Of a DNA stretch of 23,688 bases, positions 1-17,418 are shown piece after piece. How positions within the stretch are numbered: the stretch's first letter is position 1; each line of letters opens with the position of its first letter. Origin of the DNA: an uncultured Salinarchaeum sp. (GTDB lineage Archaea; Halobacteriota; Halobacteria; Halobacteriales; Salinarchaeaceae); contig CAZFMU010000007.1 of NCBI GenBank assembly GCA_964520165.1, positions 1 through 23,688 of the forward strand, read 5' to 3'. Below the pieces are notes generated by a model. It was not told the origin of the DNA. It saw nothing but the letters and a program-made list of their open reading frames with translations, and did no database searches. The translations under genes and the position numbers were made by a program.

Positions 1-1080
1 AACTTACGCCCTTCTCAGGTGTAGCCGCGAAGGCATGCCCGCAACCAAGAGATTTTATTACCTCAAGATAACCTTCTCCATTGCTACCAACAATTTACTT
101 TCCAAGAGCGAGGTTCTAATAGATTCGCATTTAGGTCATTGATGGCTCTGGTGAGCTGCACAGTCTCTTGAGCGGTATTGGTCAGTTACGGTGAATTTCG
201 TGGTTGTAATCAAGCTCGTGGCAGTAACGGGCTACTTGCAGCTATGGTGTAGAACCAACGAGAAAGACTTCAGCAGTAACTCAACATTTCTCGCAGGGTT
301 CAGACGGAAACATCTCAGCAATCGATTAAGTTTTCTTGGAGCAAAGGCAATATGGGGAAATCAATGGGTGTCAGAAACAACCATCATTCGGCTGAATTAT
401 GATGCCTCTGATTGCATTGATATAATATATAATAAACATGATAACATATGAGTAATATCTTATAGCTACGCTCCGATCGGATAGAGCCAAACACCATGCT
501 CTACTGCCAACTTGTGTATTGCCTCTCAACCTACAAATAAAGGAGCTCCTGCTGCCAATGAACTACCCCTGCCTACTCGCCGCCGTTGGGAGCTCCTTGC
601 GGCAGGGGCTTCCTGCTTCCACGACGCGCTTTGCAGGAACAACCGTAGTTCCCACAGGGAGCGCAGTCTCCACAGGCGTTGACGAATCACACTGCGATTT
701 GTTCGCCAATCAGAAATCAAAGGGTTCTGGTGACGTTCCTTCGGAGTGTCCCACTCCTACTGGCTGTGACGGCGGTTGTAACCGTCACCCACCTTCTTGT
801 CGGTGTACGGAATGGCGGTCATGAGTGATGCCGGCACAGGTCTAGTTTTTCGGCTGGCATTATAGCAAATCCACGGTTCAGAGTGAACATGAACTGAAGA
901 CAGCACTGTATCCTCTCCTTACTGTGCTGCTTGTCCGCTTTCGCGAATTGCGCTGCTCGCTGAGGACGGGTGCTTAGCGTCTGCAATCAGCCAAATCGGG
1001 GGTTCTATCCATGAGCTGACCGAACTTCGCTCCGAATTGCCCCCTTGTCTTATCTAAACGCTGCCATATAGAAATCACAG

Positions 1081-3060
1081 TCAGGGATGTGTCTCCAACG
1101 CTAATCCTTGATCGTCGATGTAAAACTGCTCCCCGACGCCGTTGCCTTCCAATTGACTGAAGGCCTGACTGATGATGTGTCGGTCAAAGTCAGTGTTCTG
1201 GGCGACTTCCTCAAGCAACACTGTATCTCGTCCGACTTGGTTGATGTACTCTGATGTTATCCAAGCAACGCAGTCTTCAACAGTTTCAGCTTGGACAGCC
1301 CGCTGGAAAATCGAAATGTTCTCTGTGACGATTGGATCGGAGGAGTCATAGATCACTTCACCGCTCTGTAGGTCAACAAGGCAGACGCTTACATGGCGGC
1401 TGTATCGAGTTCTTGCGAGCTCATCCTCAACCACGTGCTGTTTGACCTCGCTAGTCCATCCAGTTGGTGAGGCGACACCAAGAAGATAAGGCACCTCCGT
1501 CTCATGGGCTTCGCGAACTACTCTATTCACGATATGAAGCAAATCGTCCAGATGTGCCGGCTCGGCGTCGAAACCGTGGCGAGCGTGAGCTTCCAGATGC
1601 GAGTGAACGCTCGCTTCGATAATCATCCGTGGGTGGCGGCTGAGTCCGAGGTATCGCTGTTCAGTCACCTCGTATCGTGCTGTCACATTGATCGGGTGCG
1701 TTTCGAGTGTTCCTCCATCTGCCTCCTCAAGCAGATTCTGCATGCGACCGGCTTCATTGCGGTGCTCGTTGTGTCCGTCCCAGTACTGGGAGGTAATGTC
1801 AACCACCTCTGCAGGTAGCTGGAGTGTCTCAAGTTCGTGCATTGTCGTGTCAAACCGACCGATATAATCCATCTCAAATAACCTGGCGGTTTCCGCCGTC
1901 ACAACGTTCTTTCCCTCAATCCCGCCGGTCGTATCGACAGCAGTTTCAATGTCTTCAAGACGGGTTTCGAGGTCGTCTTGGCGATCCTCAAACCGGTCGC
2001 GGGCATGTGCGATCTCCTCACGCTCTTGGCGGAGGCGATCAATCTCGGCTTGGAGTTCAGACCGCTGTTCCTGAAGCCGTTCAAGTTCGTCGGTTACAAC
2101 GTTCGCAGTCGCTTCGGCCACCGGTTCGTGTTCGGCTTCAAGGGCCTCCTGCCGCGCTGACTCCAACTCATCAATCTTGGCTTCCAGTGTCCTCATGAGC
2201 TCCTCTATCTGAGTAATTGATATATCCAACTGATCAACGCCACCAGTCCCAGAAGTATCAACCTCCTCAAGCGCTTCCCGGAGCGCTGCCGTATCGACTG
2301 ACGGCTGTGCAAGTTGACGTTCAATGCGATCAAGCGCCGCATTGAATTCACGCTGTTGTTGGCCAACTTGCTGTTCCAGGGTAGTTTCGAGGTCAGCTAA
2401 CTCTTCCTGAACGGCTGCTTGAATCTGTTCACGCTTTTCAGTCGCATCGGCCACAGCCCCGATCGCTTCCTCAATCTCCTCAACCATATGCTCAAGCCCG
2501 TGCGTTTCGACGTAGAGAAAAAACCCTTCGCGGATGCGATCACGCCGATCTTCATACCGATCAACAAGGCGCTCAATGACATCCTGTTGTACATCTGGAT
2601 GATCAATGAGAGCATCTATGTTGGCGATCTGGGTTGAAGTATACTCCTGAACAAGCTCATAGACTTCTCCATCCATCCGGCGGATGCGCCGCTCAATCTG
2701 CTCCTTGTCAAGCGCGTCAAACTGCTTGTACCGATCAAACTCAACTACTGCCTCCAACTCGGCGTCAATGAAATCATCCTGCATTGGCGGAGGGACATCG
2801 TCATCCGCATAGAACGACGCCGCAATAAGGAGCCGCGCGAGCCGCAGTGAACTCCGGAAATGATCAACCTCGCCGCTCGTAAGAAACTCAGGGCACTCCT
2901 CAAGAAACTCCCAACGCAACTCCTCCTCGTTGGCTTTGATTTCGTTGTATCGCTCGATACGTGAGCGCTCGGGCATACGCCGGAGCGCGGCCAGATCCTC
3001 CGCAAGGATTCGATCGGCCGTGTGTGTGAGGTCGTCAAGCCACGTCTGGCAGTCTGTCAT
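1081..3060 (-). CDS. Large acidic coiled-coil protein (659 aa) with globular N- and C-terminal regions; function unknown
   Basis: Long uninterrupted ORF with halophile-type acidic composition. ATG verified at 3058-3060. The central ~300 aa is heptad-like and rich in E/R/Q/L. The ATG overlaps the stop of upstream ORF 3057..3644 as ATGA, implying co-transcription. No Walker A or other recognisable catalytic motif. Confidence 0.75.
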   Translation of the reverse strand: MTDCQTWLDDLTHTADRILAEDLAALRRMPERSRIERYNEIKANEEELRWEFLEECPEFLTSGEVDHFRSSLRLARLLIAASFYADDDVPPPMQDDFIDAELEAVVEFDRYKQFDALDKEQIERRIRRMDGEVYELVQEYTSTQIANIDALIDHPDVQQDVIERLVDRYEDRRDRIREGFFLYVETHGLEHMVEEIEEAIGAVADATEKREQIQAAVQEELADLETTLEQQVGQQQREFNAALDRIERQLAQPSVDTAALREALEEVDTSGTGGVDQLDISITQIEELMRTLEAKIDELESARQEALEAEHEPVAEATANVVTDELERLQEQRSELQAEIDRLRQEREEIAHARDRFEDRQDDLETRLEDIETAVDTTGGIEGKNVVTAETARLFEMDYIGRFDTTMHELETLQLPAEVVDITSQYWDGHNEHRNEAGRMQNLLEEADGGTLETHPINVTARYEVTEQRYLGLSRHPRMIIEASVHSHLEAHARHGFDAEPAHLDDLLHIVNRVVREAHETEVPYLLGVASPTGWTSEVKQHVVEDELARTRYSRHVSVCLVDLQSGEVIYDSSDPIVTENISIFQRAVQAETVEDCVAWITSEYINQVGRDTVLLEEVAQNTDFDRHIISQAFSQLEGNGVGEQFYIDDQGLALETHP

Positions 3061-3644
3061 GGGTGGTCTGAAGGACTTTGGCTCGCCGCGTATTCGGCAA
3101 GTTCGGTTTCGAAAAACTCCGCAAGAAACGATGGAGCGGGCGGATAACCGGAGATGCGAATCCGGATGTCGACACCGTCCTCTGTCGTCTGCAATTGGTA
3201 CGACGCCTCCGCGCGCCCTTTTTTTGTGTACAGTTCGTACTCGTTACGACTCGCAGACTGGAGGACAGCCTTCTTCTTCGAGAGCACGTATTCAAGAAAG
3301 GACTCAACCGCATCCGCAGATGCATCGATGCTCTCCTCAACAGTGACCAACTGCGGCTCAACGTCGGCGTCAGCCGGCTCAATCCGGTACGTCTCAATCT
3401 GATCTTCAGGAATCTTCGAGAGGAGTCTCTCGTACAACTGCTCATGATTAACACCAGCGGCAAGACGGACGAGTCCGTCTGGGGTTGTAACTTCCCCGTC
3501 GTCCCAGTTGCTGAACAAGTACTCTGCACGCTTGCGCTCGGCGTCTTCCGTATACTCGACGACGTAAAGATATCGCTCGTCGCGACGATTTTCAACCATA
3601 GTGGGTACTTCGGCTGGGGATGGCGGCCGACTGACCAACACCAT
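3057..3644 (-). CDS. Hypothetical acidic protein (195 aa), first gene of a two-gene operon with 1081..3060
   Basis: ATG verified at 3642-3644. A TATA-like 'gttata' lies about 28-33 nt upstream on the minus strand (plus-strand 3672-3679). The stop overlaps the start of the downstream gene by 4 nt. Halophile-type composition. Confidence 0.7.
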   Translation of the reverse strand: MVLVSRPPSPAEVPTMVENRRDERYLYVVEYTEDAERKRAEYLFSNWDDGEVTTPDGLVRLAAGVNHEQLYERLLSKIPEDQIETYRIEPADADVEPQLVTVEESIDASADAVESFLEYVLSKKKAVLQSASRNEYELYTKKGRAEASYQLQTTEDGVDIRIRISGYPPAPSFLAEFFETELAEYAASQSPSDHP

Positions 3645-3698
3645 TGATGAGTGTCGATCGGCGTCCGAACATCCTATAACACTATTCCTACGTGCAGC

Positions 3699-3729
3699 CT
3701 ATTAATAGTTGTCTCCAATATGGAGACAA
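3699..3729. promoter_or_regulatory. Two adjacent perfect palindromes in a divergent promoter region: ctattaatag (3699-3708) and ttgtctcca-ata-tggagacaa (3709-3729, 9-bp arms)
   Basis: Read directly from the sequence. They lie between the divergent starts at 3644 (minus) and 3805 (plus). The AT-rich context has TATA-like hexamers. Confidence 0.35.
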
Positions 3730-3804
3730 ATATTAGTATACAAAGAGTACAAAACTTTAAGTAAGTCGAGATAGAGACCGCAAACGGGTGGTGCCAACGA
3801 GATC

Positions 3805-4083
3805 ATGAACTTCACACTCTGGCTCGCGATTGTGTTTGGTGTCAACCTCATTCTTGGGGTTGGCCTCATCATCGGGGTCTTCGGCTTCATGGAACGACAT
3901 GTGTCGCTGGGGGCTACTGGTGGCATTGTAGCCGGGACGGGGTTGATTTACGCGCAGGCGACTTTCGGTGAGCAGATGCTGAAAGTATCTGTTTCCGAGA
4001 TGAAGCTGCTTGTGATTGCCGCGTCCGTTGCCGCCGTAATCGGCGTTGTCGGGACGGTACTTGTTTTGAAGCCGAATCTGTAG
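3805..4083 (+). CDS. Small membrane protein (92 aa, two predicted TM helices)
   Basis: ATG verified at 3805. Hydrophobic segments lie at about residues 4-27 and 68-88. It ends 48 nt upstream of, and on the same strand as, the ESCRT-III-like and Vps4-like genes. Confidence 0.6.
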   Translation: MNFTLWLAIVFGVNLILGVGLIIGVFGFMERHVSLGATGGIVAGTGLIYAQATFGEQMLKVSVSEMKLLVIAASVAAVIGVVGTVLVLKPNL

Positions 4084-4101
4084 CAGATAGTAACGGAAAA
4101 G

Positions 4102-4108
4102 AAATATA
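4102..4108 (+). promoter_or_regulatory. TATA-box-like element (aaatata) about 27 nt upstream of the ATG at 4132, suggesting a leaderless or short-leader transcript
   Basis: Archaeal TATA boxes sit about 26-30 nt upstream of the transcription start site. The spacing to the ATG fits a leaderless haloarchaeal mRNA. Confidence 0.35.
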
Positions 4109-4131
4109 CACGAACACAACAATTCAACACT

Positions 4132-4782
4132 ATGGAACTTCGAGACTGGGTCAAAGAACGGTTCGGAACAACTGACACGGAAACGCTTATCGACGAAAGC
4201 GTGTACAGCCGTGATAACCTTCGCAAGGACAAAGCAAAGCTTGAGCAAAGCCTTCGACAGTTGGAAAGCGAGATGGATAAGCACGCAAAAAAGTACGAAA
4301 AGTTGCTTCAGAAAGGCTCCGATGCCGATGAGCTCAGCCGCCAGCAGTACGCGCAGAAGGCGAAATTCGAAAAAAAGAAGTACGAAATCAAGAAGAAAAA
4401 GCACAAGGCCGAAAGTATCAAGCTCGGAACAGTTATCTCAATCGAAGGAATGCGCGAAGTGCTGGCAATGCAAGATGGACAGGACTACGAGCTAGATCGC
4501 CTCTTCGATGGCGACCTTGACGCACAGGAGCTCCAGAGTCAGGTCATGGATGAGATGGCCCAGTTCGGGCTAGAGATTGACGACATGAAGCAGGTTCAGG
4601 AGGCACTTGATATCGAGATCATCGATCAGGATCTCGAAACGGGGGTCTCCGAGGAACTTGAGATTATGGAAGAAATGGCAGCAGGTGATATCTCAGAGGA
4701 ACAGATCGACATTGAAGAGAATGTCGACATTGAAGAGGAAGATATCAATCTTAGCGTCAATCAGCCAAGCCGGACACTCTAA
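4132..4782 (+). CDS. ESCRT-III / Snf7-family-like protein (216 aa)
   Basis: About 210 aa, all alpha-helical. The N-terminal half is basic (KFEKKKYEIKKKKHK) and the C-terminal tail is extremely acidic, which is the ESCRT-III charge asymmetry. Segments resemble Snf7-domain helices (LRKDKAKLEQSLRQLESEMDKHAKKYEKLLQKG; MDEMAQFGLEIDDMKQVQEALD). It is followed after 3 nt by a Vps4-like MIT-AAA ATPase. Confidence 0.6.
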   Translation: MELRDWVKERFGTTDTETLIDESVYSRDNLRKDKAKLEQSLRQLESEMDKHAKKYEKLLQKGSDADELSRQQYAQKAKFEKKKYEIKKKKHKAESIKLGTVISIEGMREVLAMQDGQDYELDRLFDGDLDAQELQSQVMDEMAQFGLEIDDMKQVQEALDIEIIDQDLETGVSEELEIMEEMAAGDISEEQIDIEENVDIEEEDINLSVNQPSRTL

Positions 4783-4785
4783 GTT

Positions 4786-5943
4786 ATGTCCCTTGAGCGG
4801 AGTGCGCAGAGGAAACATTTCGAGTCAGAGTATCAGCGATACCGGTATTTAGCCGAACAAGCACGGTCGGAGGGACACGTAGAGAAGGCAGCCCGGTATT
4901 ATCGCCAGTGTGCAAGCGTACTCACGAACTTAGCGGATCTTGAGTCAAGTTCGCGAATCACGCAAGAACGACTTGAACTCGCGCAGAATCTCGTCACAGC
5001 GGCCGATCAACTTGAGACCGATGGGGAGTTGACAAACGAAACGGTCGATAACGAACAAGAACCGGATCCGAAGACGCCTACAGATGAAGCACCTTCCACT
5101 TCCGAGGATCAACCATCTTCAAGCGACGAGGAGCCCTCAGCTACAGCGTATTTATCTGAGCCTCCGTCGCTTACCTTTACGGATGTAGGCGGCATGATAG
5201 AGTTGAAAGAGACACTCAAGGATCGGGTCATTGATCCTCTTGAGCGTCCAGAGTTGTACGAACAGTACGATTTGGGCGTAGTCAATGGCGTGTTGTTATA
5301 CGGCCCTCCTGGAACTGGGAAAACATACATCACGAAAGCCTTAGCCGGTGAACTTGAGTACAATTACATTGAGGCTCGCGCATCTGATCTCACAAGTTCA
5401 CTTGTTGGCGAGGCCGCTGACAACATGGCCGAGTTGTTCAAAGTCGCTAGAAACCACCAGCCGTGCCTCCTCTTTTTCGACGAGATCGACGCGATTGCCG
5501 CTGAACGGAGTGGCGGTGATCAAAAGACGATGAGCGAGAGCCAGATGATCACCCAGTTTTTGACTGAAATGTCAAATACGAAGGGAGAGGACGTGATTGT
5601 CGTCGGGGCAACCAATCTTCCCGATGATATCGACGGGGCGGCTTGGCGTCGGTTCGACGAGCGTATCAAGGTACCACCACCGGATGCCGCAGCACGAGTG
5701 GCAGTACTACGAATCCATCTTCGTGACCGACCGGTTCTGACCGAGCATATCGATTGGGACCATATCAAAGCGCTCACCGATGGATACTCTTCGAGTGATC
5801 TTGAACTCATCGCGGCAACAGCAGCACGCAAGGCGCTCAAGGAAGCTCGGGAGAACGGTGATGTTGTGCCGATCACTCAGGATCACATCGAAACGGCGAT
5901 TGAAGAGACTGACTCAAGTCTACAGGCATGGAATACGTCCTAA
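4786..5943 (+). CDS. Vps4/CdvC-like AAA+ ATPase with an N-terminal MIT domain
   Basis: The N-terminus (EGHVEKAARYYRQCASVLTNLADL) aligns with the Vps4/CdvC MIT three-helix bundle. An acidic S/T/P linker follows. The single AAA domain has Walker A GPPGTGKT, Walker B LLFFDEID, sensor-1 Asn (GATNLPDDID) and an SRH with arginine fingers (AAWRRFDERIKVPPPD), as in Vps4 (AIRRRFERRIYIPLPD). ATG verified at 4786, 3 nt after the stop of the previous gene. Confidence 0.9.
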   Translation: MSLERSAQRKHFESEYQRYRYLAEQARSEGHVEKAARYYRQCASVLTNLADLESSSRITQERLELAQNLVTAADQLETDGELTNETVDNEQEPDPKTPTDEAPSTSEDQPSSSDEEPSATAYLSEPPSLTFTDVGGMIELKETLKDRVIDPLERPELYEQYDLGVVNGVLLYGPPGTGKTYITKALAGELEYNYIEARASDLTSSLVGEAADNMAELFKVARNHQPCLLFFDEIDAIAAERSGGDQKTMSESQMITQFLTEMSNTKGEDVIVVGATNLPDDIDGAAWRRFDERIKVPPPDAAARVAVLRIHLRDRPVLTEHIDWDHIKALTDGYSSSDLELIAATAARKALKEARENGDVVPITQDHIETAIEETDSSLQAWNTS

Positions 5944-6018
5944 TCATCCACGTCATCAAAACCCAAGTAGTGGTCTCTTCTCGCTGTATATAAACAACGA
6001 AATATAGCCGATGCTGTA

Positions 6019-6735
6019 TTACTGTTTGGCTTCGGTTGTCGCAAGCGCGACAGTAATGTTGTCGCTCCCGCCGTTGTTGTTTGCCTGAGCAATGAGATTA
6101 TCCGCCGCTGCGGACAGTGAGGTCGCATTCGTAACAGTGCGGTAGATCTGCTCATCGCTGACCTCCTCGGAGAGACCGTCAGAACACAGTAGGAGCGTTC
6201 CGGATACCGTATGCTCGTAAAAGTCCGGGTCAATATCTTCATTTGTACCGATCGCCTGCGAGACCACATTCCGCTGTGGATGTGTCTCTGCTTCGGCTTC
6301 GGTAATGTGGCCGGCTTCAACCAGCTGCTGGACAAGCGACTGGTCGGTGGTCACTTGGACAATGTTATCCCCGATATGATAGGCGCGACTATCGCCGACA
6401 TTGGCAATGATGGCCTCCTGCTCATTGATCACAGCCGCCACTAACGTGGTGCCCATCCCACGGTCGCCACCGGCATCTGGATGGCTGCGGACGGCAGTGT
6501 TGGCGGCAGTGATACCGGAAGCGAGGGCTACTTTCCAGTCACCGGTAGTGGTACGAAGCCTTTCCTTGAGCGTAGAGAGCGTCCGTTGACTCGCGACATC
6601 ACCAGCTGCGTGCCCACCCATCCCGTCTGCAACAGCGATTAGACCAACACCGTCAATTTTGACGGCGGTAACAGCGTCCTCGTTGTGTGAGCGCTGTCGT
6701 CCGGTGTCCGTTCGGGTTGCGAAGTGAACGGTCAT
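6019..6735 (-). CDS. PP2C-family (PPM) Ser/Thr protein phosphatase
   Basis: Canonical PPM motifs are present: TDTGRQRSHNED, AVADGMGGHAAGDVAS, DSRAY, LLCSDGL and GGSDNIT. ATG verified at 6733-6735. 238 aa. Confidence 0.9.
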   Translation of the reverse strand: MTVHFATRTDTGRQRSHNEDAVTAVKIDGVGLIAVADGMGGHAAGDVASQRTLSTLKERLRTTTGDWKVALASGITAANTAVRSHPDAGGDRGMGTTLVAAVINEQEAIIANVGDSRAYHIGDNIVQVTTDQSLVQQLVEAGHITEAEAETHPQRNVVSQAIGTNEDIDPDFYEHTVSGTLLLCSDGLSEEVSDEQIYRTVTNATSLSAAADNLIAQANNNGGSDNITVALATTEAKQ

Positions 6736-6826
6736 GATTCGATAGCTGCAGGTATTAACGTGAGTCTGCCTTGTGACTGGAAGTGTGTAACCCGAGTATT
6801 TGATTGAGAATGATCACGATAGTCCA

Positions 6827-7528
6827 TTACTCTTGAGGAAGTGACGCACCACAATACGGACAGAAGGCTGCGTCAGAGCTAATTTCTTCGCCGCACTGTG
6901 GACAGAATTGCTGCGTTGACGACGACTGTGCATTCGCCGCTGCGGCGACTTCCTCCGGGCTCTGTGTCTCAACTCGCCCCGAGTCGGATCCATCGGCGAT
7001 ATCTGAGCGGTTGACAACACTATCTTCGACGGTCGTTGACCGATCGATACTATCGCCCATGACGACATCCCCGTCTCCCCGATGGACAACGTTGTTTTCG
7101 ACTCTAGCTTCCGAGACTGTTTCCAAATGAAATGAGGTCTGATACCCGATCGTGATCGTCGCATCATTCGATACCGTCTGAAGGTGACCTTGTGGAACGT
7201 CATGGGTCGTTCCCTGCGACTCAACGGTCACACCGTTGGAGTTCGCCTGGTTGCGAATTTCAATCGTCTGGTCCTGCGGTACCACGACGACCGGAGCGAG
7301 ACCCTCTTTCTTTCGCGATACCGTCACATCGCCAATACCGAGATCAATGATATCTGAAGGGGTTTCAGCGATAATGGTCGTTCCGTCGCCCGAGTCACGA
7401 TAGAGTTCGATACGTCCGTCTATCGGGAGTTTTCCGCCGTCCCCGGAGGCAACCGACAGATATCCTTTCATACGTATTGTGTGAGTTAATTGGAATTCGT
7501 CGTTCGGTTGAGGTTGTTGGGTAGCCAA
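6827..7528 (-). CDS. FHA-domain (phosphothreonine-binding) protein with a C-terminal Cys4 zinc ribbon
   Basis: The N-terminal region matches the FHA signature: G-R, then S-R (VTVSRKKEG), then N-G (ANSNGVTV). The C-terminus is CPQCG-x10-CPYCG. The track start at 7526-7528 is TTG. An in-frame ATG at 7469-7471 (MKGYLSV...) is the more likely true start. The architecture resembles Sulfolobus ArnA, which also combines a zinc finger with an FHA domain. Confidence 0.75.
   Translation of the reverse strand: MATQQPQPNDEFQLTHTIRMKGYLSVASGDGGKLPIDGRIELYRDSGDGTTIIAETPSDIIDLGIGDVTVSRKKEGLAPVVVVPQDQTIEIRNQANSNGVTVESQGTTHDVPQGHLQTVSNDATITIGYQTSFHLETVSEARVENNVVHRGDGDVVMGDSIDRSTTVEDSVVNRSDIADGSDSGRVETQSPEEVAAAANAQSSSTQQFCPQCGEEISSDAAFCPYCGASLPQE
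7002..7040. repeat. DNA-level copy of a shared C-terminal tail module (encodes ...TTVEDSVVNRSDI...), paralogous to 9019..9047 and more weakly to 8671..8724
   Basis: tctgagcggttgacaacactatcttcgac (7002-7030) matches tctgagcggttaatgacactatcacttac (9019-9047) at 23 of 29 nt. Both lie within different genes. Confidence 0.45.
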
Positions 7529-7613
7529 ACCTGTAATCCGGAATCGTGTCCCATGCGTTGGCCCGTATTGCTAAGACATAGCCACGATGGCATAAAATTC
7601 AGGATACTACACA

Positions 7614-8378
7614 CTAGTTACGAAGGTACAGTCGCCGTACTCGCTCGGCCAGTTGACCGATCCGCTTGCTACGTTGTGGATCCAGCTGGTCAGATGCTAT
7701 CGCAGCAGCTTTGAGTTGCTGCTGTTGGGCCTCTAATTCTGACTGAACGTCCTCGTACGCGTCATCATCAACCGGAGTATCTTTGACAAATGAGTGGACC
7801 TCATCAAGTCGTTTACGACAGGCCTCCGCTGAATCTTCGCAGGCTCGCTCAAGATGTTCGGTTAGGGAGACGGCTAAGTAATCCGCAGAGGCATCCTGGA
7901 GCCGATCAACGGACTCGGTTGCGGCGAGATCGGCCAATCCGTCCTGCGCCATCTTGCGTTCTGTCTGTCGAGTCGCATCGTCAATGACGGTGTGGTAAGT
8001 TTCTTCAATCTCCTCGCGAAGCGTGTCAGAGTCTACTCTGGCTGCGTAGGTTTGCAAGCGATCTAAGGCCCGTTCTCGTTCGTCTGAGCGGTTGCCATCT
8101 TGTGCTACATCACAGTGCACGGAGATGGCTGTTGGGACCACCCCGGGAGCTGACTGGCCAACAAGCTTGTCAAGCTGCGATTGAGCAAGTGTGCGCTCCT
8201 CTTCGTAAGTCGCATCCCTAGCTACACGCGCAAGTGTTCGCCCGATCGCTGCACGCTGTTGATCATCAACCTCAGAGTAGAGGTCGCCAAGACGCTCAAG
8301 AGCCTCTTTGCGATCGGAGGAATACGTCGATTCACGAGCCTGACGCCGCAGTTCACTTACTGAGTCATGAAGAGCCAT
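7614..8378 (-). CDS. Hypothetical alpha-helical repeat protein (255 aa; HEAT/PBS-like repeats)
   Basis: The ORF track extends to 8603, but the first 75 residues are non-acidic and hydrophobic. The first ATG that yields a halophile-type protein (MALHDSVSELRRQ...) is at 8376-8378 and was verified. Helical motifs of the form ALERLGDLY / ALDRLQTYA repeat. Confidence 0.6.
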   Translation of the reverse strand: MALHDSVSELRRQARESTYSSDRKEALERLGDLYSEVDDQQRAAIGRTLARVARDATYEEERTLAQSQLDKLVGQSAPGVVPTAISVHCDVAQDGNRSDERERALDRLQTYAARVDSDTLREEIEETYHTVIDDATRQTERKMAQDGLADLAATESVDRLQDASADYLAVSLTEHLERACEDSAEACRKRLDEVHSFVKDTPVDDDAYEDVQSELEAQQQQLKAAAIASDQLDPQRSKRIGQLAERVRRLYLRN

Positions 8379-8439
8379 TGAACAGTCCCCTTGGTTGGAC
8401 GAACCTATATAATAGAACAGACATATTCTTTGTGGTGGC

Positions 8440-8997
8440 CTACGGTGGGGTCGATTCACCACAGTCCGGACATTGATCTGCCGCAGACGGGAGTTCTGCT
8501 CCACAGAATATGCAGTATTGGTTGTCCTCAGAGTCACGATCGGCAGGAGCATTAGATGTTGAACTCCCGCTATAGCTATTATCCGAGGACACAGTAATCT
8601 CATCCTTGTTGTCGGTGACCGTCATATTAGAAGCAACGCTATCGGTAATGGTGGTTTCCTCGGCTTGAGTATTAATATTCGATTTATTGACGACGCTGTC
8701 CTCAATAACCGTGCTGTGATCGTTCACTGTAGTGTGTTCATCAGTTTTCGTAGTGCTGTTGTCTACTCGCGTGATGTCGGTCTGCTTAACCGTCTTGTCC
8801 TGCTGACCGCTAACGATATCTCCGCTGACGTGAGTTACATCATCTGTAGTCGAGTCGAGAATATTGGCGGCAAGTTTATCCACCGTGTCATTATTACTGT
8901 TGGTCTCAACGGGGGCTGATGGGTCCCCCTCAGAACATTTTGGACATTCAGCTCCTGTATATACCTCGTTGTGTTGTTCGCAGTACGGCATAGTCAC
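8440..8997 (-). CDS. Zinc-ribbon protein with a Thr/Ser/Asp-rich low-complexity core
   Basis: N-terminal C-x15-CPKC and C-terminal CIFCG-x10-CPDCG. The middle is extremely T/S/D/N-rich and carries the shared EDSVVNKSNI tail motif. The track start at 8995-8997 is GTG and overlaps the upstream stop as GTGA. An ATG two codons downstream (8989-8991) is an alternative start. Confidence 0.65.
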   Translation of the reverse strand: MTMPYCEQHNEVYTGAECPKCSEGDPSAPVETNSNNDTVDKLAANILDSTTDDVTHVSGDIVSGQQDKTVKQTDITRVDNSTTKTDEHTTVNDHSTVIEDSVVNKSNINTQAEETTITDSVASNMTVTDNKDEITVSSDNSYSGSSTSNAPADRDSEDNQYCIFCGAELPSAADQCPDCGESTPP

Positions 8998-10157
8998 TCG
9001 TTCGTATTGTCGTCAACGTCTGAGCGGTTAATGACACTATCACTTACTTCCGTGCTCTCGTCGTTTACCTCGGTGCTCTGATCAATTTCGGTTATGCTTT
9101 GATCAACCGCGGCAATTTCAGTCGTGTCGACGGTTTTGTCCTGAGACCCGACAACCACGTCACCGTCAATAGTAGTATCACCTCCAAGCTCATCGAGACT
9201 CGTGATACCGGCGTATCTGAACTCTCCAATCGACGGCGGATCCTTACGTGTCGATTCAATGGCATCCTCGAACATGTTCCGGATGGCAGCGTAGTGATCG
9301 TCAGGGAGCTCGTTGACTGTCCGCCAGGCCCGATCAGCCACTTTTCCATCGCCGGCATCGGTGATGTCAACTGAGTACAAGCCCTGCTCCCAGACCGCGT
9401 CAATATCGAAAACCCAGAGCCCCACGGCATCAATATTACTATTTGATTTGATATGTTCGAATAAGTGTGGGGTCAAGAGCCCGACGCAGTCAGCAATTCG
9501 AATAGAACCGGTCATCGATCGAATGGTAGGATTTACGACCGCTACGTTCGCGCCTAGTGTGATATCTCCCGCAGCACTGACTGAAAATGCAAATAGGTCC
9601 GACGCTTCGATGTCCCCCTCCGAGTACACATCGCCGAGAATAACTGTCCGTGCGTTCGTCCGAAATGCGTCGGTTGCGTGCACCGAGCCGTATACGACAG
9701 TTGGACGCTCGACTGTGATATGCGCTCCAATTAAGTCACCATAGATCGCGACTGGCTGAGCTTCCCAGTCGTCAAAGGTTGATGCAGGAGCCACAATATC
9801 TATTTGCCCCTTTGAAATCACAGAGCCAGCAATACGCGCCCCGAGAGTAGACGCTTCATTAGCCGCCGGGTGAGCCGCCCCGCCGTGCTCAATAGCGACA
9901 CGATCACGGCCGAATATGTCACCGCTGACCTGTACACCGTACTTACAGTCAACTTCGGCGGCATAGATACCGATTGCCTCAGGCGGATTATATACCGACC
10001 CCTTTTCGAGAGTCACTTGCCAGTTGAGTTGGCGAAACGCGTTTTCCCGTGGAACGAGTGCCTCCTCGCACGTTTGATCAGCCTTGACAGTTGCAAAATT
10101 CGTGTTGTCTGTTTCGACTTTGTCCGACGTGATTGCTCCCTGAAGTTTGTCAGGCAC
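8994..10157 (-). CDS. Bactofilin-like beta-helix (polymer-forming cytoskeletal) domain protein with a Thr/Asp-rich tail
   Basis: The central ~170 aa consist of tandem short hydrophobic/Gly repeats of the bactofilin (DUF583) type: VQVSGDIFGRDRVAIEHG, ARIAGSVISKGQIDIV, VAIYGDLIGAHITVE, TVILGDVYSEGDIEASD and FSVSAAGDITLGANVAVV. The GTG start at 10155-10157 overlaps the upstream stop by 8 nt, and there is no in-frame ATG for about 210 codons. The C-terminus carries the shared DSVINRSDV motif. Confidence 0.6.
   Translation of the reverse strand: MPDKLQGAITSDKVETDNTNFATVKADQTCEEALVPRENAFRQLNWQVTLEKGSVYNPPEAIGIYAAEVDCKYGVQVSGDIFGRDRVAIEHGGAAHPAANEASTLGARIAGSVISKGQIDIVAPASTFDDWEAQPVAIYGDLIGAHITVERPTVVYGSVHATDAFRTNARTVILGDVYSEGDIEASDLFAFSVSAAGDITLGANVAVVNPTIRSMTGSIRIADCVGLLTPHLFEHIKSNSNIDAVGLWVFDIDAVWEQGLYSVDITDAGDGKVADRAWRTVNELPDDHYAAIRNMFEDAIESTRKDPPSIGEFRYAGITSLDELGGDTTIDGDVVVGSQDKTVDTTEIAAVDQSITEIDQSTEVNDESTEVSDSVINRSDVDDNTNE
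9019..9047. repeat. Second DNA-level copy of the shared tail module (encodes ...SDSVINRSDV...)
   Basis: See 7002..7040. Confidence 0.45.
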
Positions 10158-11148
10158 GTGCGGTCACCTCCGCGGTGTCCTCGGTTGTTGTAGCGTCTGT
10201 TGTCCTCTGTTTGTGATTGCCTTCTGCCTCAATCTCGTACGTTCGTAGTGCCTCAACAAATCGATCCAACGCGATATCTTCCTCTATAAGAAACTGGGGA
10301 TCGACATATGCACTGTCATCGCGGCTAGCAAGCGCATCACGCACCTCATCCTGTGCAACATACGACCGTACTGCATCAGCCATTTTGCTGTAGCCGTGTA
10401 CGGGATGCTCTCGGAGGTAGTCTCGGTATGGTTGGGAACGAGTTGGGGATTCGACATCATCAGAACGCCCTAAAATGGAATAAACGCGGAGTTCTTCGCC
10501 GTCATCTGTCTCAATGCCAACGACCCAAAAGGGAACTGTTATCTGCGCGGTATCACTCATTGTTGGGAGATCCGTCTGGAGTGACGCAATCGTATCTGCG
10601 GTCGCGGAGCGGTCATCAAGGAACTGATCAATCTGTTCGAAGTAGTTATTCCGCGCAGAGAGAATAGCATCAATACGATCACGATAGGTCTCATTTGTCG
10701 TGTTAGCAAGATTTGACGACTGACTGGCGACTGTTGAACGAGCCTCACGGATGTGATCAAACTCATCGTTAACTGTCTTGAAGGTATCACCGTGGCCGCC
10801 GATCGAATTCAAAAACCGATTTTTTAGACGCTTGATACTCCCGCGGTAGTCATCAAGCACCTCTTTGACGCGGTCTTCGTACTCCTGTCGCTTGCGTTCA
10901 ACCTCTTCTCTAAGTTGATCTTTGAGATCTTCGATTGCCTGACGTTCGGCCGTTGCTTTCTTGTGCTCAACATCACGAATTTGATGTTTGAGTTGTTTGA
11001 CCTCGTCGCTAAGCTGATCAACAGCACTGTTTGTCTCTCGGATTTCGCGTTTGAGATCATCAATCTGATCCGCAACAGCATCGCCTGCGGCCCGTCCGAT
11101 GCGGTGTTCGTCTACGTTTACTGTGACGTCCTGCTTGTCAGACATCAT
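10150..11148 (-). CDS. Hypothetical coiled-coil protein (332 aa)
   Basis: ATG verified at 11146-11148 (MMSDKQ). It overlaps the upstream gene's stop as ATGA. The N-terminal ~100 aa is heptad-like and E/R/K/Q-rich. The C-terminal half is mixed alpha/beta. Confidence 0.7.
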   Translation of the reverse strand: MMSDKQDVTVNVDEHRIGRAAGDAVADQIDDLKREIRETNSAVDQLSDEVKQLKHQIRDVEHKKATAERQAIEDLKDQLREEVERKRQEYEDRVKEVLDDYRGSIKRLKNRFLNSIGGHGDTFKTVNDEFDHIREARSTVASQSSNLANTTNETYRDRIDAILSARNNYFEQIDQFLDDRSATADTIASLQTDLPTMSDTAQITVPFWVVGIETDDGEELRVYSILGRSDDVESPTRSQPYRDYLREHPVHGYSKMADAVRSYVAQDEVRDALASRDDSAYVDPQFLIEEDIALDRFVEALRTYEIEAEGNHKQRTTDATTTEDTAEVTARA

Positions 11149-12692: not shown

Positions 12693-12787
12693 TACACAGG
12701 GGAGTAATATCATACAACTCAAATAAATGCTTGGGCGCTGCTGCACCCGCCGCAAGTGCTTTATCACTAACAAAACCATTTCTCATC

Positions 12788-12943
12788 ATGCACGTTCAGG
12801 TGCTTGAATTCGAGTACAACGCTACAGACGCCAAATCAATTGAGACGCGCCTGAATAACTATTTCTCACACCACGAAGTCACAAACGTTGAGGTTGTTGA
12901 TACTGGTGGTCGAATCCTTGTCTTTTGTTTCTCCGCGGAGTGA
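12788..12943 (+). CDS. Possible small acidic protein (51 aa; MHVQVLEFEYNATDAKSIETRLNNYFSHHEVTNVEVVDTGGRILVFCFSAE)
   Basis: ATG at 12788. Halophile-like composition. It occupies a 312-nt gap between two minus-strand genes. There is no homology evidence, so it could equally be non-coding promoter space. Confidence 0.25.
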   Translation: MHVQVLEFEYNATDAKSIETRLNNYFSHHEVTNVEVVDTGGRILVFCFSAE

Positions 12944-13004
12944 ATGCGTTGTGATGCTAAGTGACACGACACGTCTAATTTTCTACCAATATCATGTACG
13001 GCAC

Positions 13005-14837: not shown

Positions 14838-15145
14838 GGGTACTGGGTGAAAGGGGTATTGCCCTTCCTTTTGATAGCGAGGATGTGGTTACCCCGGAGG
14901 TTCACTAGATGGGGACTGTCCGGGACTCCACAACCACTGAAGGAAGAGCTATGGTATGGTTATTGTTTGACTTGATGTGTTGTTGTTACAAAAACCAGCC
15001 TGATAAAACTTAGCGTCACACGCGATCAATTGGAAGCTCAAGCAGTATCCTGTAAGGCCACGATTGGACGACTTGTGCAACTGAGCAGAGTTCCACGGGA
15101 CCACTTTGCGTAAGATTCAGTAGATCCCTAACAAGATCAGAGGAC

Positions 15146-17353: not shown

Positions 17354-17418
17354 CCATGAGCGGGATGGTGCTGTACTCGGATCGCCCGCTGAACTATCGG
17401 CCGCGGTGGTGGAGATAA

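What the first reader, a model, noticed from the sequence alone, without database searches (positions are those of the whole stretch)
4132..5943. ESCRT-III (Snf7-like) plus a Vps4/CdvC-like MIT-AAA ATPase gene pair in a haloarchaeal context
4132..4782 is all-helical with the ESCRT-III N-basic/C-acidic layout. 4786..5943, starting 3 nt later, has a convincing MIT domain and a meiotic-clade AAA domain. Its Walker A/B motifs, sensor-1 Asn and arginine fingers line up with Vps4 and Sulfolobus CdvC. Haloarchaea divide with FtsZ1/FtsZ2 and lack the Cdv machinery. Vps4-like/Snf7-like pairs are reported only sporadically in Euryarchaeota, and their function there is unknown (vesicle formation, membrane repair and virus egress are the usual guesses). 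The putative pore-loop-1 residue that is Trp in Vps4/CdvC (KWLGE) appears here as Leu (SSLVGE). If my alignment is right, the substrate-threading interface is divergent.
Basis: partly seen in the sequence, partly recalled or inferred. Interest (0 to 1): 0.75.

Follow-up and report, generated by a model that had tools for sequence, protein, structure and literature searches.

The report
Known haloarchaeal ESCRT-III/Vps4-like gene pair
This is a real pair of genes for a membrane-remodelling filament protein (ESCRT-III-like) and the ATPase that would recycle it (Vps4-like) in a salt-loving archaeon, but the same family and its gene neighbourhood were already catalogued in 2010 and 2024, so it is a correct identification rather than a discovery.

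Summary
Both ORFs exist as described: 4132..4782 (216 aa, "A") and 4786..5943 (385 aa, "B"), 3 nt apart. Orthologues at 66-69% identity (ESS09464.1, ESS09463.1, ERH02006.1/ERH05445.1) are listed by accession in Makarova et al. 2024 (PMC10936438) as arCOG07402 "ESCRT-III/Snf7 family" and arCOG01307 "Vps4". The window also holds that system's accessory genes: arCOG09748-like, arCOG08177-like, a PP2C phosphatase, Ser/Thr kinases and a weak FHA-like/Zn-ribbon protein.

A misses Pfam Snf7. It links solidly to catalogued haloarchaeal ESCRT-III (hhalign 97.8%) and moderately to verified eukaryotic ESCRT-III (72.7%; PspA 0.6%). B's N-terminal domain is a confident three-helix bundle whose best family is MIT, below threshold. 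B's AAA domain is a sister lineage of the meiotic/Vps4 clade (91/100 NJ bootstraps) and never groups with Cdc48 or PAN.

B is not a canonical Vps4. Pore loop 1 is an invariant SSLVGE, the pore-loop-2 arginines and the Vps4_C region are absent, and the Vps4-like "RRF" motif arose by a deletion inside the family.

Verdict: interpretation supported, already known, function untested; interest low to moderate.

The parts
4132..4782 (+). Protein A, 216 aa. ESCRT-III-like protein and an orthologue of arCOG07402 members. It has an N-terminal W6/F11-G12 motif, a basic helical hairpin (27-114), and an acidic C-terminal half with a conserved helix around residues 173-188.
   Evidence: ORF. 69% identical to ESS09464.1 (P0176), which Makarova 2024 Table S1 lists in arCOG07402. 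hhalign to H. mukohataei arCOG07402 paralogues 97.8%, E = 8.5e-13. hhalign to verified eukaryotic ESCRT-III 72.7%, E = 3.2e-5. AF2 model. Charge.
4786..5943 (+). Protein B, 385 aa. Vps4-like ATPase and an orthologue of arCOG01307 members. It consists of an MIT-like three-helix bundle (aa 1-80), an acidic disordered linker (aa 82-128) and a single classic AAA domain (aa 130-385).
   Evidence: ORF. 66% identical to ESS09463.1 (P0046); P0241 = ERH02006.1/ERH05445.1; all listed as Vps4 in arCOG01307. Pfam AAA 3.3e-37. AF2 model. Tree.
4786..5025 (+). MIT-like N-terminal domain of B (aa 1-80): three helices, H3-28, H32-52 and H56-79.
   Evidence: AF2 pLDDT 80-96 in this region. Pfam MIT is the top family, hit by 13 of 18 members, best E = 6.7e-4, window protein 5.6e-3, below cutoff. 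The profile hits Sulfolobus Vps4/CdvC MIT structures 2v6y (2.7e-3), 4lcb (0.032) and 2w2u (0.036), mixed with TPR hits.
5395..5412 (+). Pore loop 1 of B, S204-S205-L206-V207-G208-E209. It is non-aromatic, and S204-G208 are invariant across the 27 aligned members (E209 nearly so).
   Evidence: Aligned to SMWFGE of p97 D2 and SKLAGE of p97 D1. Invariant columns. H. mukohataei Vps4 has SKYFGE.
5302..5325 (+). Walker A motif of B, GPPGTGKT (aa 173-180).
5647..5652 (+). Arginine fingers R288-R289 of B, in AAWRRFDER. There is a 2-residue deletion relative to R-x-G-R-F-D. R289 is invariant. R288 is Ser in one subgroup.
   Evidence: Basal members P0114/P0120 and outgroups P0101/P0117 keep the undeleted form.
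3805..4083 (+). Small 92-aa protein with three hydrophobic segments. It is the first gene of the apparent TM-A-B operon.
   Evidence: ORF. Also called in public assemblies. Conserved next to A in 5 of 14 loci. An AT-rich divergent intergenic region lies upstream (3645-3804).
3057..3644 (-). arCOG08177-like ESCRT accessory protein. The paper describes this family as an inactivated Cas2-like domain plus a TBP-fold domain.
   Evidence: 38% identity, E = 4e-37 to H. mukohataei WP_223270986/WP_012807457. Family described in PMC10936438.
1081..3060 (-). arCOG09748-like ESCRT accessory protein, 659 aa. The paper describes this family as coiled coil plus a globular domain plus a C-terminal winged helix.
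   Evidence: 32% identity over the full length, E = 7e-103 to H. mukohataei WP_012807456, which directly follows the arCOG08177 gene there as it does here. Present in 13 of 14 related loci. The assignment of WP_012807456 to arCOG09748 is inferred from its position and the paper's description, not read from the table.
6019..6735 (-). PP2C Ser/Thr phosphatase (the STP of the system).
   Evidence: Pfam PP2C 8.5e-16. 48% identity to the PP2C in the H. mukohataei ESCRT locus.
6827..7528 (-). FHA-like N-terminal domain (weak) plus a C-terminal zinc ribbon. The public gene call starts later (214 aa).
   Evidence: Zn_Ribbon_1 5.1e-10. BLASTP E = 9e-6 to the FHA region of arCOG13166 WP_012807434. No Pfam FHA hit. 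Present in 9 of 14 loci; it directly follows B in Halonotius, A07HN63 and H. walsbyi (8 of the 9).
13005..14837 (-). Protein with a double zinc ribbon, an SPFH/Band-7 domain, a long coiled coil and a C-terminal zinc ribbon. It is the last gene of a six-gene module (7614..14837) that co-occurs with the pair in several genera.
   Evidence: Band_7 4.4e-9, above cutoff, and DZR 1.9e-16. Co-occurrence in L009, L012, L014, L015.
15146..17353 (+). Membrane-anchored PQQ beta-propeller plus Ser/Thr kinase (the STK of the system).
   Evidence: Pfam PQQ_2 and Pkinase on the public gene call. 40% identity to the H. mukohataei locus STK. Kinase genes lie near the pair in 9 of 14 loci.
20959..22476 (+). Ser/Thr kinase with C-terminal hydrophobic segments. 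The catalytic motifs are intact.
   Evidence: 39% identity to the H. mukohataei STK. HLDLKPEN and DWG motifs read from the translation.

Best explanation
The two genes are the core of a euryarchaeal ESCRT-like system of the kind catalogued by Makarova et al. (2010, 2024).

Shown here:
- Protein A is homologous to the haloarchaeal arCOG07402 'ESCRT-III/Snf7' proteins.
- Protein B is an orthologue of arCOG01307 'Vps4' members. It has an MIT-like N-terminal bundle, an acidic linker and one classic AAA domain with complete catalytic motifs.
- The pair is always adjacent. It sits with arCOG09748, arCOG08177, PP2C, kinases and an FHA-like protein.

Inferred mechanism:
1. A binds the cytoplasmic face of the membrane through its N-terminal hydrophobic motif (W6, F11-G12) and its basic hairpin, and polymerises.
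2. A's acidic C-terminal half auto-inhibits the core and carries a conserved helix (about residues 173-188) that is recognised by B's MIT-like domain.
3. B assembles into a hexamer and uses ATP to remodel or disassemble the A polymer, which drives membrane deformation or scission.
4. The membrane-anchored kinases, the PP2C and the FHA-like protein make assembly or cargo choice depend on phosphorylation.

Haloarchaea divide with FtsZ, so the likely role is vesicle formation, protein sorting or membrane repair rather than cytokinesis.

B is a divergent, non-canonical Vps4 with an aliphatic pore loop 1, no pore-loop-2 arginines and no Vps4_C region. Its grip on substrate may therefore differ from that of eukaryotic or crenarchaeal Vps4.
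For: Published cataloguing: orthologues are listed by accession, and the system is described.

Synteny: A and B are adjacent in 14/14 loci; arCOG09748-like is present in 13/14, FHA-like/ZnR in 9/14 and STK in 9/14.

Accessory genes match the H. mukohataei reference locus: E = 7e-103, E = 4e-37, and PP2C at 48% identity.

Protein A: hhalign 97.8% to catalogued haloarchaeal ESCRT-III. 72.7% to verified eukaryotic ESCRT-III with alpha1 in register, against 0.3% for the reversed control and 0.6% for PspA. About 30 of the top 50 weak Foldseek hits are ESCRT-III superfamily chains. Helical hairpin model. Charge +4 / -31.

Protein B: MIT is the best family for the N-domain, and the bundle has pLDDT above 90 over most of its length. 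Catalytic motifs are intact and invariant. B lies on the meiotic-clade side of the tree in 91/100 bootstraps and with Cdc48 or PAN in 0/100.

The 3-nt gene junction suggests co-translation.

Against: Protein B: MIT similarity is below threshold and mixed with TPR hits. Pore loop 1 is aliphatic, pore loop 2 lacks the meiotic SRR.K motif, and there is no Vps4_C or beta domain. B is only 27% identical to H. mukohataei Vps4, compared with 38% to Cdc48 D2. The 'RRF' motif is convergent.

The tree is NJ with 25 sequences, so long-branch attraction is possible.

No experiment on any haloarchaeal system was found.
Confidence: 0.72

Rival explanations
1. The locus is a phospho-signalling or conflict (defence) system. 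B would be a general AAA unfoldase, and A a coiled-coil adaptor or substrate with no membrane-remodelling role. On this view the resemblance to ESCRT-III is only that of a generic helical hairpin.
Against: Profile-profile comparison favours ESCRT-III over the controls and places alpha1 in register. MIT is the best match for B's N-domain. The wider arCOG07402/arCOG01307 families include Thermococcales and Thermoplasmata members recognised as Snf7/Vps4. An SPFH protein and TM proteins in the locus point to the membrane. I did not run a PADLOC search.
Confidence: 0.15
2. The pair takes part in cell division, as CdvB/CdvC do in Sulfolobus, working beside or in place of FtsZ.
For: arCOG01307 and arCOG07402 carry 'cell division' in their names. 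CdvB/CdvC are the best-studied archaeal relatives.
Against: No CdvA is present in the locus, and the FHA-like protein here ends in a zinc ribbon rather than the CdvA-like domain. The family is patchily distributed within Halobacteria, and Halonotius aquaticus has two copies. Haloarchaea divide with FtsZ1/FtsZ2 (review PMC7617429). B scores 169 bits against the CdvC equivalog cutoff of 650.
Confidence: 0.06
3. A is a PspA/Vipp1-type stress protein acquired from bacteria, as are the known haloarchaeal PspA homologues.
Against: There is no Pfam PspA_IM30 hit in A or in 67 relatives. hhalign to verified E. coli PspA gives 0.3-1.7%. PspA systems are not normally coupled to an MIT-AAA ATPase.
Confidence: 0.03
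4. B is a proteasome-activating (PAN-like) or Cdc48-like unfoldase that has been mis-assigned to Vps4.
For: The highest NCBIfam and PDB scores are to PAN and to Cdc48/p97 D2. Public annotations call homologues '26S protease regulatory subunit' or 'transitional ER ATPase'. Basal family members keep the R-x-G-R-F-D form of the SRH.
Against: B groups with D1, D2 or PAN in 0/100 bootstraps. The N-domain is a three-helix bundle, not a coiled-coil-OB or double-psi barrel. The C-terminus (…AWNTS) does not look like a HbYX motif (my reading from knowledge of the motif). All family scores are far below the curated cutoffs.
Confidence: 0.03

Closest known systems
Euryarchaeal ESCRT systems of Makarova et al. 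2024 (mBio, PMC10936438): arCOG07402 ESCRT-III + arCOG01307 Vps4 with arCOG09748, arCOG08177, STK and STP ('Main' clade; 'Halo_FHA' adds an FHA protein)
   Same: Orthologues of A and B are listed by accession. The gene order is the same, with ESCRT-III directly upstream of the ATPase. An arCOG08177/arCOG09748 pair, a PP2C and membrane kinases with PQQ propellers are present. An FHA-like protein follows B in many relatives.
   Different: I could not read from the held files which of the paper's Vps4 clades contains the Halonotius-type proteins. The FHA-like protein here ends in a zinc ribbon, not a CdvA-like domain. This locus also carries an SPFH/Zn-ribbon/coiled-coil protein, which the paper reports for Meth_adaptin loci. 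A and B are very divergent from the H. mukohataei Halo_FHA pair (A: BLASTP E = 2e-3; B: 27% identity).
Vps4 / CdvC (eukaryotic and crenarchaeal; meiotic clade of classic AAA ATPases)
   Same: N-terminal three-helix MIT-like domain, flexible linker and a single AAA domain. Walker A/B, sensor 1 and both arginine fingers are present. The gene lies next to an ESCRT-III-like gene. B is the nearest lineage to the meiotic clade in the tree (91/100).
   Different: Pore loop 1 is SSLVGE rather than K-W/Y-x-G-E. Pore loop 2 lacks the SRR.K arginines. There is no beta domain and no Vps4_C helix. B is not nested within the clade (80/100 replicates exclude it). The SRH deletion arose independently. The CdvC equivalog score is 169 against a cutoff of 650.
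ESCRT-III / Snf7 / CHMP / CdvB
   Same: About 200-220 aa and all-helical, with a long alpha1-alpha2 hairpin. There is a hydrophobic N-terminal motif ending in F-G, a 'KG' turn after alpha1, and a basic N-half with an acidic C-half. The gene is coupled to an MIT-AAA ATPase.
   Different: No Pfam Snf7 match. The profile match is limited to alpha1. No canonical MIM1 or MIM2. No winged-helix extension as in CdvB. Polymerisation is untested.
Haloarchaeal tandem-AAA proteins (P0101/P0102 from Halomicroarcula; P0117)
   Same: They are the closest relatives of B's AAA domain (46-50% identity; clade support 100/100). They share the DVGGM…VVNGVLL…PPPD motifs and the C-terminal SS(L/I)xxW motif.
   Different: They have two AAA domains and no MIT-like domain. 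They keep aromatic pore loops (SKYMGE, SKWMGE) and the undeleted RRSGRFD. Their gene context was not examined.

Membership tests
Euryarchaeal ESCRT system (arCOG07402 + arCOG01307, Makarova 2024) | Proteins are orthologous to members listed in the two arCOGs | tested here: met
   P0176 = ESS09464.1 (69% identical to A) is listed in arCOG07402. P0046 = ESS09463.1 (66% identical to B) and P0241 = ERH02006.1/ERH05445.1 are listed in arCOG01307.
Euryarchaeal ESCRT system (arCOG07402 + arCOG01307, Makarova 2024) | ESCRT-III gene directly upstream of the ATPase gene, with conserved adjacency | tested here: met
   3-nt spacer. Adjacent on the same strand in 14/14 genome loci.
Euryarchaeal ESCRT system (arCOG07402 + arCOG01307, Makarova 2024) | arCOG09748 and arCOG08177 proteins encoded in the locus ('Main' clade signature) | tested here: met
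   BLASTP E = 7e-103 and E = 4e-37 to the corresponding adjacent pair in the H. mukohataei reference locus. arCOG08177 identity is supported by Fig. S3 of the paper, which lists WP_012807457.
Euryarchaeal ESCRT system (arCOG07402 + arCOG01307, Makarova 2024) | Associated Ser/Thr kinase and phosphatase | tested here: met
   PP2C 8.5e-16. Four kinase-like genes, two of them with intact motifs.
Halo_FHA subtype | arCOG13166 protein: FHA domain fused to a CdvA-like C-terminal domain | tested here: inconclusive
   6827..7528 gives only E = 9e-6 at 21% identity to the FHA part of WP_012807434. There is no Pfam FHA hit. The C-terminus is a zinc ribbon, not CdvA-like.
ESCRT-III / Snf7 (PF03357) | Match to the Pfam Snf7 model | tested here: not met
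   No hit at E <= 1 for A or at E <= 0.01 for 67 relatives. The catalogued H. mukohataei ESCRT-III proteins fail too, so this test has low power in this group.
ESCRT-III / Snf7 (PF03357) | Profile-profile similarity to bona fide ESCRT-III proteins | tested here: inconclusive
   The 99-sequence haloarchaeal profile against verified Snf7/CHMP4B/CHMP3/CHMP2A/CHMP1B gives 72.7% and E = 3.2e-5, but over only 36 columns (alpha1). Controls are <= 15.2% for single sequences and 0.3% for the reversed alignment.
ESCRT-III / Snf7 (PF03357) | Core fold: alpha1-alpha2 hairpin followed by shorter helices | tested here: inconclusive
ESCRT-III / Snf7 (PF03357) | Basic N-terminal half and acidic C-terminal half | tested here: met
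   Net charge +4 (1-115) and -31 (116-216). Caveat: haloarchaeal proteins are acidic in general.
ESCRT-III / Snf7 (PF03357) | C-terminal MIT-interacting motif (MIM1 or MIM2) | tested here: inconclusive
   There is a conserved acidic helix, consensus SEELELMEEMAAGEIS, with E174, E175 and A184 invariant. It does not fit the MIM1 or MIM2 consensus as I know them.
ESCRT-III / Snf7 (PF03357) | Polymerises on membranes | not testable with these tools
   Needs biochemistry.
Vps4 / CdvC (meiotic-clade AAA) | N-terminal MIT domain | tested here: inconclusive
   Best family and best structural class, but below threshold. Pfam MIT gives 17 bits against a cutoff of 30, and 13 of 18 members hit. Hits to 2v6y, 4lcb and 2w2u are at E = 0.003-0.04. 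The three-helix bundle has pLDDT above 90 over most of its length.
Vps4 / CdvC (meiotic-clade AAA) | Classic AAA catalytic motifs (Walker A/B, sensor 1, two Arg fingers) | tested here: met
   R288 is lost in one subgroup.
Vps4 / CdvC (meiotic-clade AAA) | Aromatic pore loop 1 (K-W/Y/F-x-G-E) | tested here: not met
   SSLVGE, invariant. H. mukohataei Vps4, VPS4B, spastin and katanin all have an aromatic residue here.
Vps4 / CdvC (meiotic-clade AAA) | Pore loop 2 arginine pair (SRR.K) | tested here: not met
   B has SESQMITQ at the position where VPS4B, spastin, katanin and H. mukohataei Vps4 have (A/S)RR (trimmed alignment).
Vps4 / CdvC (meiotic-clade AAA) | Vps4_C region (beta domain and C-terminal helix) | tested here: not met
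   No Pfam Vps4_C hit. The model ends with the fourth lid helix, H365-384. H. mukohataei Vps4 also has no Pfam Vps4_C hit.
Vps4 / CdvC (meiotic-clade AAA) | Phylogenetic placement within the meiotic clade | tested here: inconclusive
   B is sister to the clade, not nested in it. {B lineage + meiotic} gets 91/100, and the meiotic clade excluding B gets 80/100. The tree is NJ with 25 sequences.
Vps4 / CdvC (meiotic-clade AAA) | Reaches the NCBIfam CdvC equivalog cutoff | tested here: not met
   169 bits against a cutoff of 650.
PspA / Vipp1 (IM30) | Sequence or profile similarity to PspA | tested here: not met
   No Pfam PspA_IM30 hit. hhalign 0.3-1.7%.
PAN / Cdc48 unfoldases | AAA domain groups with PAN or with Cdc48 D1/D2 | tested here: not met
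   0/100 bootstraps for each, even though raw similarity scores are highest to these proteins.

The most novel reading that the evidence does not exclude
The B lineage (the MIT-like single-AAA proteins plus the haloarchaeal tandem-AAA proteins) could be a separate, old branch of classic AAA ATPases, sister to the whole meiotic clade. After the tandem-AAA relatives diverged, this family lost the aromatic pore loop 1. Independently, it acquired the Vps4-type SRH deletion. If so, B may not thread ESCRT-III by the canonical aromatic staircase. It might instead remodel its partner in another way, possibly gated by phosphorylation. Together with the co-travelling SPFH/Zn-ribbon module, the locus would then be a phospho-regulated membrane-microdomain or vesicle machine specific to Halobacteria, and not just a diverged copy of Cdv/ESCRT.
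Probability: 0.2. Interest if true: 0.6.

Novelty: already known. Interest (0 to 1): 0.3.

Why it matters
ESCRT systems outside the TACK and Asgard archaea bear on how old ESCRT-based membrane remodelling is, and on what it does in organisms that divide with FtsZ. This locus adds no new kind of system, because the family, its neighbourhood and its likely link to phosphorylation are already in the literature.

Three details may be useful to anyone who takes the system to the bench:
- The ATPase has invariant aliphatic pore loops and lacks other Vps4 hallmarks.
- Its Vps4-like 'RRF' motif is convergent.
- In several genera, an SPFH-containing six-gene module travels with the pair.

The function of every haloarchaeal ESCRT-like system remains untested.

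Tried and rejected
- **Pfam and NCBIfam on A and B.** No Snf7, PspA, MIT or Vps4_C hit at default sensitivity. All AAA family scores are far below their cutoffs.
- **HMMER of A against PDB sequences.** I searched A alone, its 26-sequence profile and a 67-sequence profile. Only chance coiled-coil hits came back.
- **Search of 1.84 billion representatives with the A profile.** It gave 87 hits. Those with source names are haloarchaeal 'hypothetical' proteins, and none of the 67 scanned carries Snf7.
- **Homology search with the H. mukohataei ESCRT-III profile.** 32 close relatives, none annotated as Snf7.
- **Foldseek on model B.** Cdc48, PAN, FtsH and Vps4 are all equally good matches, so it is not discriminating.
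- **afdb50 library.** Unavailable.
- **First reading of the NJ tree.** It gave about 36% support for the link between B and the meiotic clade. That label had been displaced by rerooting, and a direct bipartition count gives 91/100.
- **Pfam FHA on 6827..7528.** No hit.
- **tRNA and Rfam scans of the window.** Nothing found.
- **Sigma-70-type promoter and terminator scan.** At chance level, and not appropriate for archaea anyway.
- **PspA, PAN and Cdc48 readings.** Considered and rejected, as detailed under the rival explanations.


Full report
**1. Observation**

The window contains ORF A at 4132..4782 (+, 216 aa) and ORF B at 4786..5943 (+, 385 aa). The junction reads CTC TAA GTT ATG, so stop and start are 3 nt apart. 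A 92-aa protein with three hydrophobic segments (3805..4083) lies just upstream on the same strand, after an AT-rich divergent intergenic region. The same gene calls appear on three public assemblies. One is a 44,451-bp contig of NCBI MAG assembly GCA_905333215.1.

Both proteins have large haloarchaeal families: 5713 proteins at E <= 1e-10 for B, most of them general AAA proteins, and 203 at E <= 1e-3 for A. The closest named relatives are Halonotius, Halorubrum, Haloquadratum, Halobellus and Halorhabdus. These are real, conserved genes.

**2. Published status**

Makarova et al. 2024 (mBio, PMC10936438) surveyed archaeal ESCRT systems. They describe euryarchaeal Vps4 clades named Main, Halo_FHA, Meth_adaptin, Halo_adaptin and Thermoplasmata.

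- It lists ESS09463.1, ERH02006.1 and ERH05445.1 (A07HN63 and Halonotius J07HN6/J07HN4) in arCOG01307, 'Vps4'.
- An exact look-up shows that my hits P0176 (69% identical to A), P0046 (66% identical to B) and P0241 are those accessions.

The family of this gene pair is therefore already catalogued as ESCRT-III plus Vps4. Liu et al. 2021 (PMC8281802) also used a Halomicrobium mukohataei 'ESCRT-III-like' protein as the euryarchaeal query. I found no experimental study of any haloarchaeal system.

**3. Neighbourhood**

I fetched the paper's Halo_FHA reference locus on H. mukohataei plasmid pHmuk01 and compared it with the window proteins.

| Window gene | Match in the reference locus | Result |
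|---|---|---|
| 1081..3060 (-) | 689-aa protein that follows the arCOG08177 gene (arCOG09748 by position and description) | 32% over the full length, E = 7e-103 |
| 3057..3644 (-) | arCOG08177 protein | 38%, E = 4e-37 |
| 6019..6735 (-) | PP2C | 48% |
| Four kinase-like genes | Locus STK | matches |
| 6827..7528 (-) | FHA part of arCOG13166 | E = 9e-6 |

The last protein ends in a zinc ribbon and has no Pfam FHA hit, so I call it only FHA-like.

The 610-aa protein at 13005..14837 has two N-terminal zinc ribbons, an SPFH/Band-7 domain (E = 4.4e-9, above cutoff), a coiled coil and a C-terminal zinc ribbon. The paper reports this architecture for Meth_adaptin loci.

In 14 related genome loci:
- A and B are adjacent in 14/14.
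- The arCOG09748-like gene is present in 13/14.
- The FHA-like/Zn-ribbon gene is present in 9/14; it directly follows B in 8 of those (Halonotius, A07HN63, H. walsbyi).
- Kinases are present in 9/14.
- The six-gene block 7614..14837, which ends with the SPFH protein, co-occurs with the pair in Halosimplex, Salarchaeum and two Haloarculaceae MAGs.

**4. Is A an ESCRT-III protein?**

Direct sequence tests are negative:
- No Pfam Snf7 or PspA hit for A or for 67 relatives down to about 18% identity.
- No ESCRT-III or PspA chain is found in PDB sequences with A or its profiles.
- The catalogued H. mukohataei ESCRT-III proteins fail the same tests, and their family reaches no Snf7-annotated protein. 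These tests therefore have little power in this group.

Profile-profile comparison is more informative.

| Query profile | Target | hhalign result |
|---|---|---|
| A family | Three H. mukohataei arCOG07402 paralogues | 97.8%, E = 8.5e-13, 154 columns |
| 99-sequence haloarchaeal profile | Eukaryotic ESCRT-III alignment | 72.7%, E = 3.2e-5 |
| 99-sequence haloarchaeal profile | Reversed ESCRT-III alignment | 0.3% |
| 99-sequence haloarchaeal profile | PspA | 0.6% |
| 99-sequence haloarchaeal profile | Unrelated coiled coils from this window | <= 10.8% |

In the ESCRT-III match, residues 28-63 of A align to residues 24-59 of Snf7. That is helix alpha1, ending at the shared 'KG' turn. The match covers only 36 columns.

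Net charge is +4 for residues 1-115 and -31 for 116-216. Invariant residues include W6, F11 and G12 at the N-terminus. To my knowledge this resembles the hydrophobic '…FG' start of many ESCRT-III proteins. A helix around residues 173-188 is also conserved. No canonical MIM is recognisable.

Conclusion for A: it is a member of the haloarchaeal arCOG07402 family. It is probably a very divergent ESCRT-III and not a PspA. The direct evidence is moderate.

**5. Is B a Vps4?**

B's architecture is an N-terminal three-helix bundle (H3-28, H32-52, H56-79; block-mean pLDDT 80-96), a disordered acidic linker (82-128), and one AAA domain whose lid ends at H365-384.

N-terminal domain:
- Pfam MIT is the top family. 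It is hit by 13 of 18 members, with best E = 6.7e-4. The window protein gives 5.6e-3 and 17 bits against a cutoff of 30.
- The profile finds the Sulfolobus Vps4/CdvC MIT structures 2v6y, 4lcb and 2w2u at E = 0.003-0.04, interleaved with TPR proteins.

AAA domain:
- Walker A, Walker B, sensor-1 N277 and R289 are invariant. R288 is Ser in one subgroup.
- Raw similarity does not discriminate between families. NCBIfam gives PAN 189, CDC48 184, FtsH 172 and CdvC 169 bits, all far below their cutoffs.
- The best PDB domains are p97 D2 at 164-172 bits.
- Foldseek gives E = 1e-17 to 5e-20 for p97, Rpt/PAN, FtsH and Vps4 alike.
- By contrast, the best single-domain hit of H. mukohataei Vps4 is yeast Vps4 (164.6 bits, against 125-132 for p97/VAT domains). 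B is only 27% identical to that protein.

I built an NJ tree of 25 AAA domains on 240 trimmed columns, without the SRH indel. The references were verified against the PDB (VPS4B, spastin, katanin, ATAD1, PAN, FtsH) or copied from tool alignments (p97 and VAT D1/D2). Counted as unrooted bipartitions over 100 bootstraps:

| Grouping | Support |
|---|---|
| B family | 100 |
| B family + haloarchaeal tandem-AAA proteins P0101/P0117 | 100 |
| {B lineage + meiotic clade} versus {Cdc48/VAT D1, D2, PAN, FtsH} | 91 |
| Meiotic clade including H. mukohataei Vps4, excluding B | 80 |
| B lineage with D1, with D2, or with PAN | 0 each |

The support labels printed were displaced by rerooting and should be ignored. 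Limits of this tree are the NJ method, sparse sampling and possible long-branch attraction.

Features that depart from Vps4:
- Pore loop 1 is an invariant SSLVGE.
- Pore loop 2 reads SESQMITQ where the meiotic clade and H. mukohataei Vps4 have (A/S)RR.
- There is no Vps4_C hit and no beta domain.

The Vps4-like 'AAWRRFDER' motif is a 2-residue deletion of R-x-G-R-F-D. The basal family members P0114 and P0120 read KRSGRFDER; P0120 is the syntenic orthologue in locus L009. The outgroups read RRSGRFDER (P0101) and LRTGRFD (P0117). The rest of the family is monophyletic in 80/100 replicates. By parsimony, the deletion arose inside the family, independently of the one in the meiotic clade.

Conclusion for B: it is a Vps4-like ATPase by architecture, gene context and nearest clade, but a divergent sister lineage rather than a canonical Vps4 or CdvC.

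**6. Mechanism**

Shown: homology, architecture, intact catalytic motifs, and conserved linkage of the pair with membrane-anchored kinases, a phosphatase and accessory ESCRT proteins.

Inferred:
1. A polymerises on the inner face of the membrane.
2. B's MIT-like domain binds A's acidic C-terminal region.
3. The B hexamer remodels the polymer using ATP.
4. Phosphorylation controls assembly or cargo selection, as Makarova et al. propose for these systems.

Because haloarchaea divide with FtsZ, vesicle formation, sorting or membrane repair is more likely than division. I put about 0.7 on this overall model and about 0.95 on the orthology statement.

**7. Rivals**

- A generic signalling or defence unfoldase with a coiled-coil partner: about 0.15.
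- A role in cell division: about 0.06.
- A PspA-type protein: about 0.03.
- A PAN- or Cdc48-type unfoldase: about 0.03.

**8. Novelty and score**

The finding is a correct identification of a system that is already in the literature and in the arCOG database. The extra details found here are increments:
- invariant aliphatic pore loops;
- no pore-loop-2 arginines;
- a convergent SRH deletion;
- tandem-AAA relatives as the nearest outgroup;
- an SPFH module associated with a Main/Halo-type locus;
- two predicted pseudokinases.

Function is still unknown experimentally, so the system remains a reasonable target, but a specialist would not be surprised by it. Interest is 0.3.

Noticed in passing
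window 17419..19614 (+) and 22666..23577 (-): Two of the four kinase-like proteins look like pseudokinases. The active-looking ones (15146..17353 and 20959..22476) read HLDLKP(A/E)N and DWG. These two read YHGALQPAV / AGW and YEALTPES / LRG, so they have lost the catalytic Asp, Lys and Asn and the DFG Asp. This is read from the translations.
   Followed up: partly
window 7614..14837 (-): A six-gene block co-occurs with the A-B pair in Halosimplex marinum (L012), Salarchaeum (L014), a Haloarculaceae MAG (L015) and partly L009. Its genes are a 254-aa helical protein, a Zn-ribbon protein, a 387-aa protein with no Pfam hit, a 331-aa coiled coil, a 515-aa TM/coiled-coil protein, and a 610-aa ZnR-SPFH-coiled-coil-ZnR protein. 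The 2024 survey reports the SPFH/ZnR/coiled-coil architecture only for Meth_adaptin loci.
   Followed up: partly
P0101, P0102 (Halomicroarcula) and P0117; not in the window: The closest relatives of B's AAA domain outside its family are haloarchaeal proteins with two tandem AAA domains. They have aromatic pore loops, an undeleted RRSGRFD motif and no MIT-like domain. Their gene context and function were not examined.
   Followed up: partly
L005 and L007 (Halonotius aquaticus): One species carries two paralogous A-B loci on different contigs. L007 shares more of the window's neighbours: the small TM protein, the arCOG08177-like gene and the PP2C.
   Followed up: no
window 1..1080: About 1 kb has no convincing ORF, no public gene call, no tRNA and no Rfam match. 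On the source contig, a PemK-type toxin gene lies just beyond the window's left end.
   Followed up: partly
window 15000..19500 versus 3500..12500: G+C is 0.56-0.63 over the two PQQ-propeller kinase genes, but 0.49-0.55 over the ESCRT-like and SPFH parts. The kinase block may have a different history.
   Followed up: no
window 8994..10157 (-): A 387-aa protein has no Pfam or NCBIfam match. It is 52-55% identical in three other genera within the SPFH module. Its function is unknown.
   Followed up: no
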